DNA of 32,000 nt from assembly GCF_021057185.1 (NCBI RefSeq), contig NZ_CP054059.1, forward strand, positions 990,001-1,022,000. Reading direction: 5' to 3'. Made by a program: the position numbers and the translations under genes. Under the pieces are notes generated by a model, which was not told the origin of the DNA, did not search any database, and saw only the letters and a list, made by a program, of their open reading frames with translations. The stretch is from Candidatus Absconditicoccus praedator (GTDB lineage Bacteria; Patescibacteriota; Gracilibacteria; Absconditabacterales; Absconditicoccaceae). This document shows positions 6-28,325 of this stretch, piece by piece; the first letter of the stretch is position 1, and each line of letters begins with the position of its first letter.

Positions 6-206
6 CTATTCAAACATCTTTTTTTTAATCAGAGAACTCAAAAGAGACCCTGTTACCACCAAACTAAAAATAAAACCACCTCCAAAAAAGTAAAGAATGA
101 AATAATCTTCATAGAGTATAAAACCAAGAGCTGCAAAATCTCCCAGGAACAAGGCCAGGATTCCAAACAAAACAATCCAGACCTTGTCTTCATCAAACTC
201 CATCAT
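6..206 (-). CDS. small membrane protein, 66 aa, two predicted TM helices (hypothetical)
   Basis: ATG at 206 with AGGAG at 214-218 (7-nt spacer) and TAG at 6-8. Peptide MMEFDEDKVWIVLFGILALFLGDFAALGFILYEDYFILYFFGGGFIFSLVVTG... All 7 Gly are GGN; there is no UGA codon. Confidence 0.5.
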   Translation of the reverse strand: MMEFDEDKVWIVLFGILALFLGDFAALGFILYEDYFILYFFGGGFIFSLVVTGSLLSSLIKKKMFE

Positions 207-3987: not shown

Positions 3988-4185
3988 ATGAAAAGATGCT
4001 ATGATTGCAAACATTTCAAGCCTAACATGCATTTTGAAGATGATGAAATGCTGTTTGAGGCATATGGTGTATGTACTCGTTCAAATAGGTTTGTGTTCCA
4101 AGAAGTCCACATGAGCTGGGTGGAGGCTCTACTCAGAAGAAGATGTGGAAGAAAGAAAAGATACTTCCTACAAGTAAAAACCTAA
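3988..4185 (+). CDS. small Cys-rich protein, 65 aa (hypothetical, possible Zn-binding CxxC...C...C)
   Basis: Intact even in the standard code. AAGGAG at 3975-3980 with a 7-nt spacer; stop is TAA. Peptide MKRCYDCKHFKPN...GVCTRS...RRRCGRKK. No UGA codon. A perfect hairpin follows at 4193-4219. Confidence 0.6.
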   Translation: MKRCYDCKHFKPNMHFEDDEMLFEAYGVCTRSNRFVFQEVHMSWVEALLRRRCGRKKRYFLQVKT

Positions 4186-10317: not shown

Positions 10318-10791
10318 TTAATTTTTTATCAACATATTTATAGAATAAAAAATGGGTTCTAGAAAAACTCCAGAACCCAGTCAAAATCATGAGGAAAAAC
10401 CTCTAAGCTTTCTTAATTCATCCCAGCTAATATATTCTATCCATTGAACTCCAAAACCCTGAACACCCAACAAAATTGGATATTCTTCAAAATTTGGGGA
10501 AGAATCTCCTAGATCAACAGCAAAAACTGCTATATCTCTAATTATACTATCTGGAAAGAGTTGGTTGATCTCCAAGAAACCAACATAACCTTCTGTTTCT
10601 TTGTACTTGAATATAGGTTTCACAATGCCTTTAAATAGTTCAGGAAAGACAACTTTTAAAAGTTTTTTATGTTTTCTACCAAATATTCTATAAAAATCGG
10701 TGTCTTGCATCAAGACTATCATGCTTCTACCAGATGAATGATCCAGCTTCACATAAAATATATCTTGACGATGTTCAGTTACAACACCCAT
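10318..10791 (-). CDS. hypothetical protein. The core is 134 aa (10390-10791) ending at TGA 10387-10389; table 25 read-through adds 23 aa up to TAA 10318-10320.
   Basis: ATG 10791 with GGAGG at 10801-10805 (9-nt spacer). MGVVTEHRQDIFYVKLDHSSGRSMIVLMQDTDFYRIFGRKHKK...GVQWIEYISWDELRKLRGFSS. All 11 Gly are GGN and there is no internal TGA. The ORF-track start at 10809 is a GTG. Confidence 0.6.
10345..10378 (-). terminator. intrinsic terminator 9 nt after the TGA of the 134-aa ORF
   Basis: On the - strand: GGGTTCTGGagtttttCTAGAACCC followed by ATTTTTT. Stem gggttct (10354-10360) pairs with agaaccc (10372-10378). Confidence 0.65.
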
Positions 10792-10921
10792 AAACCTGGA
10801 CCTCCACACTACAATTCAAGTAAAAGCAAGACGTAGTATATTCTTCTTAGAAAAAAAGTCAACCTTATTAAAAAATCCACAAGAGTAAAACAAATAATAT
10901 ATTTTTTAGGTTACAAATCTA

Positions 10922-11116
10922 TTATCTTTCAAGAATATACAATATCATAAAGTGAATAATAAAAAACACAAATAAAACCAAAAACAAACGAAAAATATAG
11001 TTTAGCAAATGATTAAAATCAATTATTCACAAAACAAAGCCTATCATAAACAAACCAAAAGAAAACAAAAACACTACAATGTACATAACTCATATAGATT
11101 TTGCCTTATCCAACAT
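10922..11116 (-). CDS. small hydrophobic membrane protein, 64 aa (hypothetical)
   Basis: ATG 11116, TAA 10922-10924. MLDKAKSIGVMYIVVFLFSFGLFMIGFVLGIIDFNHLLNYIFRLFLVLFVFFIIHFMILYILER. Uses TGA=Gly. Sits just downstream of miaA. Confidence 0.4.
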
Positions 11117-11145
11117 ATCAATATATTTATTAATAAATTTGTAAA

Positions 11146-20532: not shown

Positions 20533-20837
20533 CAAAAAAATCAACAAAATTATTAAATTCATACAAACAGCCCTATATTGATAATTTAAAATAATATATT
20601 ATGATAGAAGATAAAAATTATATACAAAAACTTGTAGAACAAAAAGACATTGAATGACTTAAAAGGGAATGGCAAACTATTGTCAATATAAAATCACAAA
20701 TAGTCGATGCTTTATCAACTTGTTCAAAAAGGAGACAAAAAGATTTTAAAACCTTAGAAGAGCTTGAAAAAAAGCAAAGACAAATTACTCAAGCTCTGAA
20801 TGAACTTGAACCAAAATCAAAAACTAGTCATTAACAA
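20533..20837 (+). repeat. direct repeat, copy 1 (about 305 bp; core 20613-20837)
   Basis: The 225-bp core matches 25709-25933 with 4 mismatches and no indel (offset 5096 bp). The upstream 22-mer caaaaaaatcaacaaaattatt (20533-20554) recurs at 25633-25654. The stretch between is more diverged, with a 4-nt length difference. Confidence 0.9.
20601..20834 (+). CDS. small helical protein, 77 aa (hypothetical), intact copy
   Basis: ATG 20601, TAA 20832-20834. [77 protein letters not shown]. Confidence 0.6.
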
Positions 20838-25632: not shown

Positions 25633-25933
25633 CAAAAAAATCAACAAAATTATTTTATATGTACCCAAAATAATTTTATTGATTATCTAAAAATGATATT
25701 AATGAAAAAAAAATTATATACAAAAACTTGTAGAACAAAAAGACATTGAATGACTTAAAAGGGAATGACAAACTATTGTCAATATAAAATCACAAATAGT
25801 CGATGCTTTATCAACTTGTTCAAAAAGGAGACAAAAAGATTTTAAAACCTTAGAAGAGCTTGAAAATAAGCAAAGACAAATTACTCAAGCTCTGAATGAA
25901 CTCGAACCAAAATCAAAAACTAGTTATTAACAA
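25633..25933 (+). repeat. direct repeat, copy 2 (about 301 bp; core 25709-25933)
   Basis: See copy 1. Mismatches fall at 25768 (TGG>TGA), 25867 (AAA>AAT), 25903 (synonymous) and 25925 (CAT>TAT). Confidence 0.9.
25702..25930 (+). pseudogene. second copy of the 77-aa gene, out of frame with its ATG because of an A9 tract (pseudogene or phase-variable)
   Basis: The conserved frame runs from 25712 to TAA 25928-25930 but is closed upstream by TAA at 25700-25702. The ATGs at 25693 and 25702 are in the +1 frame. ATG 25702 is followed by 9 A (25705-25713), and removing one A gives MKKNYIQKLVEQ... in frame. Confidence 0.6.
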
Positions 25934-27563
25934 AATGCAGGTAAACTCAAGCATAATTTTCCACTCATACAACTTTTAACTCCTCTCAATCATCCAAAAT
26001 CAAACTTCAAGTATCAGAAGTCTGACCACCCGATTCTGCATAAAAAGGCGTTTTATCCAAAACTACTACTCTTTGTCAGTCTACTTCAAAATCTTTTAAA
26101 ACACTACTATCTTGAGTTTCCAAAGTATCATATCCAACAAATTTAGTGGCAGGAATTCAATGCAAATACTTCGCCCAGTCTATTCATCTTTTGAATACAT
26201 CTTTTGTTCACTCACGAGATCTTTCTCTGGCTTTTTCCATTTCTTTTTCAAATCAACACAAGTCCACAGCAAGTCAATTATCTGTAGCTATCTCCTTGGT
26301 AAGTTCTACAGGAAAACCATATGTATCATACAAAAGAAAAATATTTTTTCACTCAATCTCTTTTGAAGAATTTTTCATTATTTCATTCAATTTCTGCCTT
26401 CAATTATTTATTGTTTTTTGGAATTGAGATATTTCGTTTAGGATAGAAGAAACTATTGATTCTGTATTATTAGAAATTTCAATATAGTAAGTTCAATATT
26501 TCTTATTAATTTGATCAACCAGGTTTTTCACAAAATCATCCAATTTTGCATTTTCATCAAGAGAAATTACCGAATAATACAGCCTTCTAATCAGTCTCCT
26601 AAGCACATATCCCCTACCCTCATTACTTGCAATTACTCAGTCTCATATCATAAAAACAGCTGTCCTTATATGATCTGCTATTATTCTAAAATGTTTTGTA
26701 GTATTGTTTTCCTTATCAGAAAAATCATTTTCATGTTTTTCAAATGGAGGATATTTTTTGTCTACCAAATCTTGTATAGCAAGCATTATAAACTCAAAAA
26801 GATCACACTCAAAAACTGTTTGTTGTCATTGCAAAATCATTGCCAGTCTTTCCAATCACATACCTGTATCTACATTTTGTTGAGAAAGTTTGGAAAAAGT
26901 TCAGTCTTCATTTTTGTAAAATTCCATAAACACATTATTCCAAACCTCCAAAAATCTATCATTTTCTCACATATCCCAATCATTTGGCCCCCACTCTTCT
27001 CATCTATCAATATGAATTTCTGCACAAGGCCCACATGGACCTATCTCTCAAGCAGGACCTCGGAAGTTATCTTCCATTCAAATAGCTTTAATTCTTTGGT
27101 CAGGAATTCATATTTCATTAAGAATTTTTCTAGCCTCAGTATCTTCTCATATTCACAAACTTTCATCACCAGCAAAAATTGTAACCCCTATTTTTTCCAT
27201 GGGAACTCATATATACTCATTCAAGAACCTGATAGACCATGTCAAAGATTCTTTTTTGAAGTAATCACCCAAAGACCAATTCCCTAGCATCTCAAAAAAT
27301 GTAAGATGTCTTTCATCACCAACTTCATCTATATCTCAAGTTCTTAATGATTTTTGCGTATTATAAAGTCTTTTTCATTGAGGATGAGGTTTTCATACAA
27401 GATAAGGCACAAGTTGTTGCATTCCTGCAGTAGTAAACAACACAGTTTTGTCTTGGCTATCTGGTACTAGTGAAGCATATTTTAGATAAGTATGATTTCT
27501 ATCTGGATCTTGCCAAAACTCATCCCAAAGTTTTCTAATTTCTTCTGAGGTTAATTTTTTCAT
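25920..27563 (-). CDS. alaS: alanyl-tRNA synthetase, catalytic and tRNA-recognition part only (547 aa); editing and C-Ala domains absent
   Basis: ATG 27563, TAG 25920-25922, 1644 nt. [118 protein letters not shown]. It ends ...GVYLHFVNN*, with the final codons lying inside repeat copy 2. Confidence 0.88.
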
Positions 27564-27675
27564 AAAACTTTTTCTTTGATATAAATTCAAACTTTAATAT
27601 AAATAATTAACAAATCAAATCAAGTTTTTATATAAAACAAAAAAAATACAAAATTTTAAATTATCCAAAAATAAA

Positions 27676-27708
27676 TTAAAAACCCGGTTCATGCTTTCAT
27701 GAACCAGG
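27676..27708 (-). terminator. intrinsic terminator after the 175-aa ORF
   Basis: On the - strand: CCTGGTTCATGaaagCATGAACCGGG followed by TTTTT. The stem spans 27683-27693 and 27698-27708 with one mismatch. Confidence 0.7.
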
Positions 27709-27720
27709 TATATATCCAAC

Positions 27721-28248
27721 CTATGAATGACAATCAATAAAATCTTCGGTAAACCTCCAATATTCATAACTTAAAGCCATAGGATTCTTGGTAAGAGTAT
27801 AATCCAAAACATGCGTTAGACCATTCTCACCTCCCACAGCAACAATATCTCCTCTTCTCAATTCCAAAAGATCCTCAAACCACAATTCTTTTCTGGGACC
27901 AATCACCCAAGTATTAACCAATTGTCTTGGAAAACCATTTAGAGCTGTCCAATAAGTTTGGCTTTGGTCAGGTAAATAAGTATTTATAGCAACCAAAATT
28001 TTGGAAGAAGATTTATTTGGATCTGCAAGCCTATACAAGTCATGCAAACATTGCCTTACCAATACAGGAAAGGCATTTGTCACCAAACCTTTTTCAATTT
28101 TTGGGGGATTTTTAGTAAAGAATCTGATATTTTGAAATCTACTATTTCTCCCCTTCCTACCAAGTCGTACATGATAACCATTTTTCTGGTCTTGACATAC
28201 AGGAATTCCTTTTTGCAAATAACCTTGTTTAAAATGGTAACACTGCAT
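27721..28248 (-). CDS. hypothetical protein, 175 aa, with atypical codon usage (no UGA)
   Basis: Intact in the standard code. ATG 28248 with AAGGA at 28256-28260 (7-nt spacer) and TAG at 27721-27723. MQCYHFKQGYLQKGIPVCQDQKNGYHVRLGRKGRNSRF...RRGDIVAVGGENGLTHVLDYTL...FIDCHS. All 12 Gly are GGN. Local GC is about 38-40% on two 60-nt lines I counted. Confidence 0.7.
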   Translation of the reverse strand: MQCYHFKQGYLQKGIPVCQDQKNGYHVRLGRKGRNSRFQNIRFFTKNPPKIEKGLVTNAFPVLVRQCLHDLYRLADPNKSSSKILVAINTYLPDQSQTYWTALNGFPRQLVNTWVIGPRKELWFEDLLELRRGDIVAVGGENGLTHVLDYTLTKNPMALSYEYWRFTEDFIDCHS

Positions 28249-28325
28249 GTTTCTGTCCTTTTTTATTATCAGACTTTGTGAATATACTTATTTGAAAAAT
28301 ATTATCAAGAAAAGTTTACTAAAAA

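What the first reader, a model, noticed from the sequence alone, without database searches (positions are those of the whole stretch)
10318..10809. A 134-aa ORF ends in UGA 9 nt before its terminator, which predicts a non-stop message under table 25
The ORF runs from ATG 10791, with GGAGG 9 nt upstream, and contains no internal UGA. It terminates in the standard code at TGA 10387-10389. A GC-rich hairpin (10354-10378) and T-tract follow immediately.

If UGA is Gly, as it is everywhere else in this window, translation reads on through a second TGA (10381-10383). It crosses the hairpin and meets the first TAA only at 10318-10320, about 25 nt beyond the terminator T-tract. Transcripts ending at the terminator would therefore have no in-frame stop and would be targets for ribosome rescue.

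This looks like the footprint of a gene imported together with its stop codon and terminator from a standard-code genome. The alternative is context-dependent termination at UGA.
Basis: partly seen in the sequence, partly recalled or inferred. Interest (0 to 1): 0.66.

Follow-up and report, generated by a model that had tools for sequence, protein, structure and literature searches.

The report
Imported gene with an unreadable stop
A small gene in the predatory bacterium Candidatus Absconditicoccus praedator keeps the ribosome-binding site, UGA stop codon and terminator typical of ordinary bacteria, although its host reads UGA as glycine, so it is a natural test of how a changed genetic code treats foreign genes.

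Summary
The window comes from Ca. Absconditicoccus praedator, a code-25 genome in which TGA supplies 66% of glycine codons. ORF134 (10791-10390, minus strand) has 11 Gly codons and no TGA (P about 7e-6). It is preceded by GGAGG, and a real hairpin plus T-tract terminator follows its TGA.

Three further results support import from a standard-code source:
- None of 48 native genes examined has a properly spaced Shine-Dalgarno motif, whereas all six TGA-free genes do.
- The only homologues, among 1.84 billion representative proteins, are also TGA-free. One is a paralogue in the same genome that ends ...SS-TGA plus terminator at the aligned position. It lies in an island with a 55-58% GC, proteobacterial-type dapD.
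- The 23-codon extension is not conserved. The sister-strain homologue stops at TAA a few codons earlier.

ORF134 is therefore best read as a foreign-style cassette whose stop codon has become a sense codon.

Three points remain open. The non-stop mRNA and ribosome-rescue consequence is a sound inference but is untested. No standard-code donor was found. ORF134's other codon usage looks native, so the donor was AT-rich, or TGA avoidance is actively maintained.

The parts
10835..10862 (-). Sigma-70-like promoter, TTGACT-16 nt-TATACT, about 45 nt upstream of the ATG
   Evidence: 10 of 12 consensus matches. It is a consensus match only, and such matches are not enriched in this AT-rich window. 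The paralogue P0003 has TTGACA-16-TATATT at the equivalent place.
10801..10805 (-). Shine-Dalgarno-like GGAGG, 9 nt before the ATG. It is a foreign-style signal in an SD-less genome.
   Evidence: None of the 22 native genes in the window, and 0 of 48 across the loci of this organism and its sister strain, has a properly spaced SD. All six TGA-free genes have one.
10390..10791 (-). ORF134 core: 134 codons and 11 Gly codons (8 GGT, 2 GGA, 1 GGC), none of them TGA. It belongs to a three-member protein family of unknown function.
   Evidence: Homologues P0003 (E 4e-8) and P0004 (E 2e-6) came from an exhaustive search of 1.84e9 representative proteins. The alignment has 31 invariant columns. There are no Pfam, PHROG or PADLOC matches.
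10387..10389 (-). Fossil stop codon: a TGA at the position where the paralogue's reading frame also ends in TGA. The host decodes it as Gly.
   Evidence: Evidence that TGA = Gly.
10381..10383 (-). Second in-frame TGA, two codons downstream of the first
10343..10379 (-). Intrinsic-terminator-like element: an 11-bp hairpin (10379-10353) followed by TTTTTTATTC (10352-10343). Under code 25 it lies inside the reading frame.
   Evidence: scan: 12 pairs, 5 of them GC. (-17.4 kcal/mol, z = -3.5).
10318..10386 (-). Remainder of the code-25 read-through extension after the TGA at 10389-10387 (the 23-residue extension is GFGLGSGVFLEPIFYSINMLIKN), ending in TAA at 10320-10318, which lies 22-26 nt past the T-tract
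   Evidence: Public gene calls include the extension: a 157-aa product, P0001 with TGA read as W and P0011 with TGA read as G. It is not conserved in the homologues.

Best explanation
ORF134 is a self-contained expression cassette built for a standard-code bacterium. It has a sigma-70-type promoter, a GGAGG ribosome-binding site, a TGA-free ORF, a TGA stop and an intrinsic terminator. It sits between miaA and an hlyD/acrB-like efflux operon in the chromosome of Candidatus Absconditicoccus praedator. This host reads UGA as Gly and normally uses no Shine-Dalgarno sequences. The cassette was most likely acquired horizontally from a standard-code or code-neutral, probably AT-rich, source. Its stop has not been repaired.

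Shown by the data:
- the anatomy of the cassette;
- the host's genetic code;
- the significance of the TGA avoidance;
- the split in SD use between native and TGA-free genes;
- the homologous TGA end in the paralogue;
- the non-conservation of the extension.

Inferred:
- In this host the ribosome inserts Gly at both UGA codons and runs into the terminator.
- Transcripts that end in the T-tract (about 10346-10344) then carry no in-frame stop. They would give a product of 134 plus about 14-15 residues that must be released by ribosome rescue. If tmRNA performs the rescue, the product is tagged for degradation.
- Transcripts that escape termination, possibly because the translating ribosome melts the hairpin, would give the annotated 157-aa protein ending at TAA 10318.
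For: 1. The host reads UGA as Gly.
- 360 in-frame TGA codons in 21 native genes, 66% of their Gly codons.
- 26 of 29 aligned TGA positions in glyA match Gly.
- The organism was identified by exact protein look-ups.

2. ORF134 has 0 TGA among 11 Gly codons, P = 7e-6. No native chunk of the same size with more than 5 Gly codons is TGA-free.

3. SD motifs mark the TGA-free genes.
- They are present upstream of 6 of 6 TGA-free genes: ORF134, ORF175, P0003, the 103-aa membrane ORF, P0004 and the sister-strain dapD.
- They are absent at proper spacing from 0 of 48 native genes (Fisher P between 4e-8 and 1e-6).
- Absconditabacteria are published as SD-scarce and lacking CCUCC (PMC10783764).

4. Two of the three strongest terminators in the 32 kb follow the two large TGA-free ORFs.

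5. The homologues point the same way.
- The family has three members among 1.84e9 representative proteins, and all are TGA-free.
- P0003 is in the same genome, because its neighbour HsdM is UFX82625.1 of A. praedator. It ends SS-TGA at the aligned position, with a terminator 19 nt later.

6. P0003 and P0004 lie beside a foreign dapD.
- This dapD is 55-58% GC, has 28 Gly codons and no TGA, has an AGGAGG SD, and is closest to gamma/beta-proteobacterial DapD structures.
- The island sits at different loci in two strains whose backbones are 94-98.6% identical. The island itself is only 74.5% identical.

7. No protein at least 50% identical to ORF134 is on record from the sister-strain assembly, although that assembly yielded counterparts of ORF175, HsdM and LysA.

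8. Literature context.
- About 11% of Vampirococcus genes are inferred to be HGT, and read-through of foreign UGA stops has been proposed (PMC8080830).
- In recoded E. coli, foreign genes ending in the unassigned stop are resolved by tmRNA, ArfA and ArfB (PMC6207430).
Against: - No homologue from a standard-code organism, plasmid or phage was found. All three family members are in Absconditicoccus genomes, so the donor is only inferred.
- ORF134's GC (33%), GC3 (0.24) and non-Gly codon usage (z = -1.25) fall within the native range. This is unlike P0003, P0004 and dapD. The import is either from an AT-rich donor or old, and an old import fits poorly with an intact SD and zero TGA.
- No insertion scars, integrase or tRNA flank the cassette.
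- Expression, the transcript 3' end, tmRNA, and the absence of RF2 in this genome could not be examined within the window.
- The orthologous locus in the sister strain could not be retrieved.
Confidence: 0.7

Rival explanations
1. The cassette belongs to a code-neutral gene pool (a phage moron or other mobile DNA) that circulates between the code-25 predator and standard-code bacteria such as its prey. On this reading, TGA avoidance, the SD and the terminator are kept by ongoing selection in standard-code hosts rather than being leftovers of a single import.
For: - ORF134 and ORF175 have native-like codon usage but zero TGA and intact SD motifs. That pattern is expected for elements adapted to this host's composition but constrained to stay code-11 compatible.
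- Such TGA-free, code-11-compatible phages of Absconditabacteria and Gracilibacteria have been described (PMC10746230).
- The dapD/P0003 island occupies different loci in two close strains.
Against: - The described code-neutral phages avoid TGA as a stop codon. ORF134, P0003, the 103-aa membrane ORF and the M39-6 dapD all end in TGA.
- There are no PHROG hits, no hits in IMG/VR, GenBank phages or PLSDB plasmids, and no phage or mobility genes next to ORF134. Its neighbours are miaA, an hlyD-like gene and an acrB-like gene.
Confidence: 0.17
2. ORF134 is an ordinary native gene whose true product is the annotated 157-aa protein. The hairpin is incidental, or is an attenuator for the downstream efflux operon, and the lack of TGA is chance.
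For: - Public annotation calls the 157-aa product.
- Codon usage is native-like.
- The extension is hydrophobic and could act as a tail anchor (sequence).
- An ORF running through a terminator resembles coupling-dependent attenuators (own knowledge of pyrBI/pyrE).
Against: - The probability of zero TGA is 7e-6.
- An SD is present in a genome where 0 of 48 native genes have one.
- The extension is absent from P0004 and unrelated in P0003.
- The TGA falls exactly where the paralogue's frame ends in TGA.
- hlyD has its own AT-rich upstream region containing a TATAAT.
Confidence: 0.05
3. UGA has a dual meaning in this organism. In this context (UGA UUU UGA directly before a strong hairpin) it terminates translation, so the real product is 134 aa.
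For: - Four TGA-free genes of this genome (ORF134, P0003, the 103-aa membrane ORF and dapD) carry TGA exactly where termination is expected, and a scanned terminator follows three of them within about 20 nt.
- The dapD TGA aligns with the sister strain's TAA.
Against: - UGA is read as sense 360 times in the window.
- According to a screen of 250,000 genomes, UGA-reassigned Gracilibacteria and Absconditabacteria carry tRNA-Gly(UCA), and only the non-reassigned outliers carry RF2 (PMC8629427).
- The pattern is explained more simply by inheritance from standard-code donors.
- The sequence contexts after the four TGAs share nothing except the terminators.
Confidence: 0.04
4. The ORF is not a gene: it is a chance open frame or a dead remnant that is never expressed.
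For: - It has no known domain.
- The AlphaFold model is poor (pLDDT 44).
- The SD is probably unusable by a ribosome that lacks CCUCC.
Against: - Two homologues with 34-36% identity over the full length and 31 invariant columns.
- A 134-codon frame free of TAA and TAG in 33% GC DNA, with no competing ORF on the other strand.
- The promoter, SD and terminator are all intact.
Confidence: 0.04

Closest known systems
Foreign genes ending in an unrecognised stop codon in genomically recoded E. coli (Ma, Hemez, Barber, Rinehart & Isaacs 2018, PMC6207430)
   Same: A horizontally arriving gene ends in a codon that the recipient no longer reads as stop. Ribosomes run on, and the outcome is read-through products or rescue by tmRNA, ArfA or ArfB, with loss of the protein.
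   Different: That system is engineered, and its UAG is unassigned (no tRNA, no RF1). Here the system is natural, and UGA is efficiently decoded as Gly. So the ribosome should not stall at the codon but only at the transcript's 3' end. None of the outcomes has been measured here.
Code-11-compatible phages predicted to infect Gracilibacteria and Absconditabacteria (Liu, Jaffe, Chen, Bor & Banfield 2023, PMC10746230)
   Same: These are TGA-free reading frames associated with code-25 hosts. The sequence remains interpretable under both codes.
   Different: Those are whole phage genomes that rely on stop codons other than TGA. ORF134 is a single chromosomal cassette among housekeeping genes and does end in TGA. 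No phage gene is nearby, and there is no PHROG or IMG/VR match.
Horizontally acquired genes in Absconditabacteria (126 HGT genes in Vampirococcus lugosii; Moreira et al. 2021, PMC8080830)
   Same: The same bacterial group and lifestyle, a predator that likely imports prey DNA. That paper explicitly proposes that UGA reassignment would cause read-through of foreign UGA stops.
   Different: There the read-through idea is speculation, without an example locus. HGT was inferred from phylogeny, not from code or SD signatures. Here the donor cannot be named for ORF134.
Translation-coupled attenuators in which a leader ORF runs through the terminator hairpin (E. coli pyrBI and pyrE leaders; own knowledge, not checked with tools)
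   Same: The reading frame crosses an intrinsic terminator and its stop lies beyond it. A ribosome close behind RNA polymerase would therefore prevent hairpin formation and favour read-through into the downstream genes, here hlyD/acrB-like.
   Different: Those are short, evolved regulatory leaders with a nucleotide-sensing pause. Here the geometry looks like an accidental by-product of the code change after a 134-codon gene. No regulatory logic or conservation is evident.

Membership tests
Genome using translation table 25 (UGA = Gly) | In-frame TGA is frequent in conserved genes and aligns with Gly in homologues | tested here: met
   360 TGA codons in 21 native genes. In glyA, 26 of 29 aligned TGA positions match Gly and none matches Trp. 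The organism is Ca. Absconditicoccus praedator.
Genome using translation table 25 (UGA = Gly) | tRNA-Gly(UCA) present and release factor 2 absent | not testable with these tools
The literature reports this pattern for the clade (PMC8629427).
Intrinsic (Rho-independent) terminator | G+C-containing stem, short loop, and an immediately following U-tract on the transcribed strand | tested here: met
   11-bp stem, 5-nt loop, tail TTTTTTATTC. Energy -17.4 kcal/mol, z = -3.5.
Intrinsic (Rho-independent) terminator | Transcript 3' ends map to the U-tract | not testable with these tools
   This needs Term-seq or 3' RACE.
Horizontally acquired gene | Sequence signatures that differ from the native genes of the recipient | tested here: met
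   - Zero TGA among 11 Gly codons, P = 7e-6.
- SD present, against 0 of 48 native genes.
- However, GC, GC3 and non-Gly codon usage are native-like.
Horizontally acquired gene | Closest homologues lie in a different lineage (an identifiable donor) | tested here: not met
   Only two homologues exist, and both are in Absconditicoccus genomes. There are none in plasmids, phages, IMG/VR or JGI metagenomes.
Horizontally acquired gene | Patchy presence among close relatives | tested here: inconclusive
   - No ORF134-like protein is on record from the sister-strain assembly, but the orthologous locus could not be fetched.
- For the paralogue's island, the locus differs between strains.
Non-stop mRNA / trans-translation substrate | No in-frame stop between the start codon and the mRNA 3' end | tested here: inconclusive
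   The condition is true at the sequence level if transcripts end at the T-tract. The first TAA or TAG lies 22-26 nt beyond it. The actual 3' ends, tmRNA and tagging are untested.
Code-11-compatible phage / prophage gene | Phage hallmark genes or phage-family membership | tested here: not met
   - No PHROG match.
- No phage or IMG/VR match.
- The neighbours are miaA, hlyD-like and acrB-like genes.
Any curated protein family (Pfam, PADLOC, PHROGs) | Significant profile match | tested here: not met
   No hits at permissive thresholds for any of the three family members. The AF2 model is unusable (pLDDT 44).

The most novel reading that the evidence does not exclude
A. praedator may carry a standing class of small genes deliberately kept in 'standard-bacterial dialect' (sigma-70 promoter, Shine-Dalgarno, no TGA, intrinsic terminator). 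This would reflect exchange with, or expression in, its standard-code prey. For the members that end in TGA, the terminator plus ribosome rescue, rather than a stop codon, would define the protein's C-terminus. The combination of native-like codon usage with strict TGA avoidance and intact SD motifs in ORF134 and ORF175 is what this reading predicts. Simple decay after a single import does not predict it.
Probability: 0.1. Interest if true: 0.85.

Novelty: new variant of a known kind. Interest (0 to 1): 0.6.

Why it matters
Whether a reassigned stop codon isolates a lineage from horizontal gene flow is a long-standing question. It has been argued both ways for SR1 and Gracilibacteria (PMC8080830) and tested so far only in engineered E. 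coli (PMC6207430).

This locus gives a concrete natural case in a cultivable predator-prey system. It is a foreign-style gene fixed in a code-25 chromosome with its UGA stop unrepaired and its terminator inside the new reading frame.

The analysis also yields a simple, alignment-free marker of imports in these genomes: TGA-free and SD-bearing ORFs against a TGA-rich, SD-less background. In the sequence examined, 4 of 7 such genes still end in TGA. The code therefore does not seem to prevent fixation of UGA-ending imports. Their fate (extension, rescue, degradation, or terminator suppression) can now be measured directly.

Tried and rejected
- **Table 4 (UGA = Trp).** Rejected. TGA aligns with Gly, never Trp, in SHMT. 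Public code-4 calls such as P0001 and P0003 simply write W at TGA.
- **P0003 as a 278-aa protein.** Rejected. It is an over-call that starts in upstream non-coding DNA and reads through TGA and two terminators. The real gene is L082 2793-3251.
- **L082 and L083 as standard-code donor contigs.** This was my first impression from the GC-rich dapD and the TGA stops. Rejected, because the flanking HsdM, lysA and histidine-kinase genes are full of in-frame TGA. HsdM and LysA were matched to A. praedator proteins by exact look-up: HsdM is identical, and LysA falls in the same 90% cluster.
- **Assembly chimera as the origin of the island.** Unlikely, because two independent assemblies from different samples show junctions between code-25 genes and the island.
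- **Synteny with other CPR genomes around miaA.** No shared neighbours, and no close relative in the GTDB representatives or JGI metagenomes (best MiaA identity 51%, 44%).
- **Structure-based function.** The AF2 model on the three-sequence alignment gave pLDDT 44, so no fold search was run.
- **Rfam.** Nothing in the window.
- **Insertion scars.** Only a chance-level 15-nt imperfect repeat was found.
- **The shared TCTGGAG in the three family terminators.** Noted, but not relied on as evidence of homology.

Full report
**1. What is in the sequence**

On the minus strand, an ATG at 10791 is preceded by GGAGG (10805-10801, 9-nt spacer). A TTGACT-16-TATACT promoter-like site lies at 10862-10835. 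The frame runs for 134 codons without any TGA, then reads TGA (10389-10387), TTT, TGA (10383-10381).

It then enters an 11-bp hairpin (10379-10353) followed by TTTTTTATTC. The first TAA or TAG in frame is at 10320-10318, which is 22-26 nt beyond the T-tract. The hairpin folds at -17.4 kcal/mol, against -8.6 +/- 2.5 for shuffles (z = -3.5). It is among the three strongest terminator-like sites in the window.

**2. The genetic code and the organism**

Under table 11 the window gives only fragments. With TAA/TAG as the only stops it gives tex, serS, an acrB-like gene, an hlyD-like gene, miaA, a hemN-like gene, glyA, folA, greA, alaS, ychF and rluD.

- These native genes hold 360 in-frame TGA codons, 66% of all their Gly codons.
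- In glyA, 26 of 29 aligned TGA positions match Gly in a solved SHMT, and none matches Trp.

Exact-sequence look-ups place the window on the 1,129,696-nt contig of Candidatus Absconditicoccus praedator. This is a cultivated epibiotic predator of the Absconditabacteria/SR1 group. Public annotation reads ORF134 through to the TAA as a 157-aa protein.

**3. ORF134 does not look like a native gene**

- It has 11 Gly codons and no TGA (P = 7e-6). Among 315 native chunks of 134 codons, only five lack TGA, and each of those has at most five Gly codons.
- Its GGAGG is exceptional. None of the 22 native genes in the window has a Shine-Dalgarno motif. Across 48 native (TGA-containing) genes of this organism and its sister strain, none has a properly spaced one.
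- All six TGA-free genes examined do have one: ORF134, ORF175, P0003, a 103-aa membrane ORF, P0004 and the sister-strain dapD. Fisher P is between 4e-8 and 1e-6.
- This matches a published survey that lists Absconditabacteria among SD-scarce organisms lacking the CCUCC anti-SD core (PMC10783764).
- Two of the three best terminators in the window follow the two large TGA-free ORFs.

**4. Homologues**

A word-indexed search of 5.8 billion proteins found only the protein itself. An exhaustive HMMER scan of 1.84 billion representatives found two relatives, P0003 (E 4e-8) and P0004 (E 2e-6). A profile search added none. There is nothing in JGI metagenomes, IMG/VR, GenBank phages or PLSDB plasmids. 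There is no Pfam, PHROG or PADLOC match. The AlphaFold model is too poor to use.

P0003 lies on a contig of the same sequencing run. Its neighbour HsdM is identical to A. praedator protein UFX82625.1, so P0003 is a paralogue in the same genome. Its recorded 278 aa is a code-4 over-call.

- The real gene is L082 2793-3251. It has a near-consensus promoter, GGAGG and no TGA.
- It ends ...ELLRKKRISS-TGA, followed 19 nt later by a terminator.
- ORF134 ends ...ELRKLRGFSS-TGA, with the same spacing from the conserved EL.

P0004 comes from a sister strain whose backbone is 94-98.6% identical. It ends ...VLKEV-TAA a few codons earlier and is also followed by a terminator. The read-through extensions are 23 aa in ORF134 and 64 aa in P0003, and P0004 has none. 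They share nothing beyond passing through a hairpin.

**5. The paralogue's neighbourhood shows import directly**

P0003 and P0004 sit tail-to-tail with a dapD gene.

- This dapD is 55-58% GC in a roughly 30% GC genome.
- It has 28 Gly codons and no TGA, and it carries an AGGAGG SD.
- It is closest to gamma/beta-proteobacterial DapD structures.
- It uses CGA and CGG at conserved Arg positions, although these codons appear to mean Trp in this clade (PMC8629427; alaS codon 168).

In strain M39-6 the island follows HsdM-481. In the sister strain that locus lacks it, and the island lies between a histidine kinase and a different HsdM.

The island is only 74.5% identical between the strains. The dapD fragment is 82% identical, with 29 synonymous changes in 70 codons. 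P0003 and P0004 are 50.7% identical at the protein level.

In M39-6 the three island genes end in TGA. In the sister strain they end in TAA or TAG. The dapD stops differ as TGA versus TAA at the same codon.

**6. Most likely mechanism**

ORF134 is a foreign-style cassette whose stop codon became a sense codon on arrival. Sections 1-5 establish the anatomy, the host code, the statistics and the homology of the TGA end. The rest is inferred.

- The ribosome inserts Gly at both UGA codons and enters the terminator.
- RNA that ends in the T-tract has no in-frame stop. It yields a stalled ribosome and a product of 134 plus about 14-15 residues that must be rescued. If tmRNA acts, as in recoded E. 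coli, the product is degraded (PMC6207430).
- RNA that escapes termination yields the 157-aa protein. A ribosome translating across the hairpin may itself favour that escape, as in coupling-dependent attenuators (own knowledge).

**7. What does not fit neatly**

- No standard-code donor homologue exists in the databases searched.
- ORF134 and ORF175 have native-like GC3 and non-Gly codon usage (z = -1.25 and -0.6). P0003, P0004 and dapD are clearly foreign by the same measure.

So either the donor was AT-rich (a standard-code CPR bacterium, a Firmicute, or a code-11-compatible phage of the kind described in PMC10746230), or TGA avoidance and the SD are being maintained by selection. The second possibility is the basis of the more novel reading, a code-neutral gene pool shared with the prey.

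Context-dependent UGA termination, a genuine native 157-aa protein, and a spurious ORF are each much less likely, for the reasons given under the rival explanations.

**8. Verdict**

The interpretation as an imported gene with a fossil stop and terminator is supported and extended. The non-stop and rescue consequence is a well-founded but untested prediction.

The general idea that UGA reassignment makes foreign UGA stops unreadable is already in the literature as speculation (PMC8080830) and as an engineered model (PMC6207430). In the papers I could search, I found no documented natural chromosomal example, and no report of the sharp TGA-free/SD-bearing signature.

Noticed in passing
window 27682-28308 (-): A second foreign-style cassette, ORF175 (28248-27721).
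- It has a promoter-like TTGATA-16-TATATT and an AGGA SD at -7.
- It has 12 Gly codons and no TGA (P about 2e-6), and a TAG stop.
- A strong terminator (27709-27682) follows 12 nt after the stop.
- It is an orphan protein. The only relative is a 98% identical copy at the same locus in the sister strain (L168, 98.6% nt identity; 5 synonymous and 4 non-synonymous differences).
   Followed up: partly
window 6-206 (-) and 3988-4185 (+): Two more small TGA-free ORFs with AGGAG 7 nt before the ATG.
- ORF66 is membrane-like, has 7 Gly codons and no TGA (P about 5e-4), and ends in TAG.
- ORF65 is Cys-rich, has 2 Gly codons, and ends in TAA.
Together with ORF134 and ORF175, this makes about one such cassette per 8 kb in this window.
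   Followed up: partly
all native gene starts in the window; L167, L166, L084, L082: Native A. praedator genes have AT-rich leaders and no Shine-Dalgarno motif (0 properly spaced in 48). SD presence separates TGA-free genes from TGA-containing genes perfectly in the sequence examined.
   Followed up: yes
window alaS codon 168 (ORF 25920-27593, -): A CGA codon sits at the invariant Trp of the AlaRS 'DNFW' motif (aligned to W in solved AlaRS structures). This fits the predicted CGA/CGG-to-Trp reassignment in Absconditabacteria. CGG is absent and CGA is rare (12 codons) in the native genes. The alaS ORF is only 547 aa.
   Followed up: partly
L082 2145-3580 (same genome as the window); L084 4737-6160 (sister strain): An island holds a proteobacterial-type, 55-58% GC, TGA-free dapD, tail-to-tail with the ORF134 paralogue.
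- It lies at different loci in two close strains and is 74.5% identical between them, while the backbone is 94-98.6% identical.
- In M39-6, dapD ends in TGA (a predicted +95-aa read-through) and has CGA/CGG at conserved Arg positions.
- In the sister strain, the same codon is TAA.
   Followed up: partly
window 20533-20837 and 25633-25933: A 306-nt repeat (91% identical, with a core of about 230 nt nearly identical) in two intergenic regions. The first copy holds an intact 77-aa coiled-coil-like ORF on the plus strand (20601-20834, one TGA). There is no Rfam match.
   Followed up: partly
L082 codon 292 of HsdM vs L166: A TGA codon in strain M39-6 corresponds to GGA in the sister strain. This is a live example of synonymous TGA/GGA exchange in a native gene.
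   Followed up: no
window 10327-10341 and 11116-11130: A 15-nt imperfect direct repeat (14 of 15 matches) brackets hyp64 plus the ORF134 cassette. In this AT-rich DNA the expected number of such repeats by chance is about 0.3, so it is not taken as an insertion scar.
   Followed up: partly
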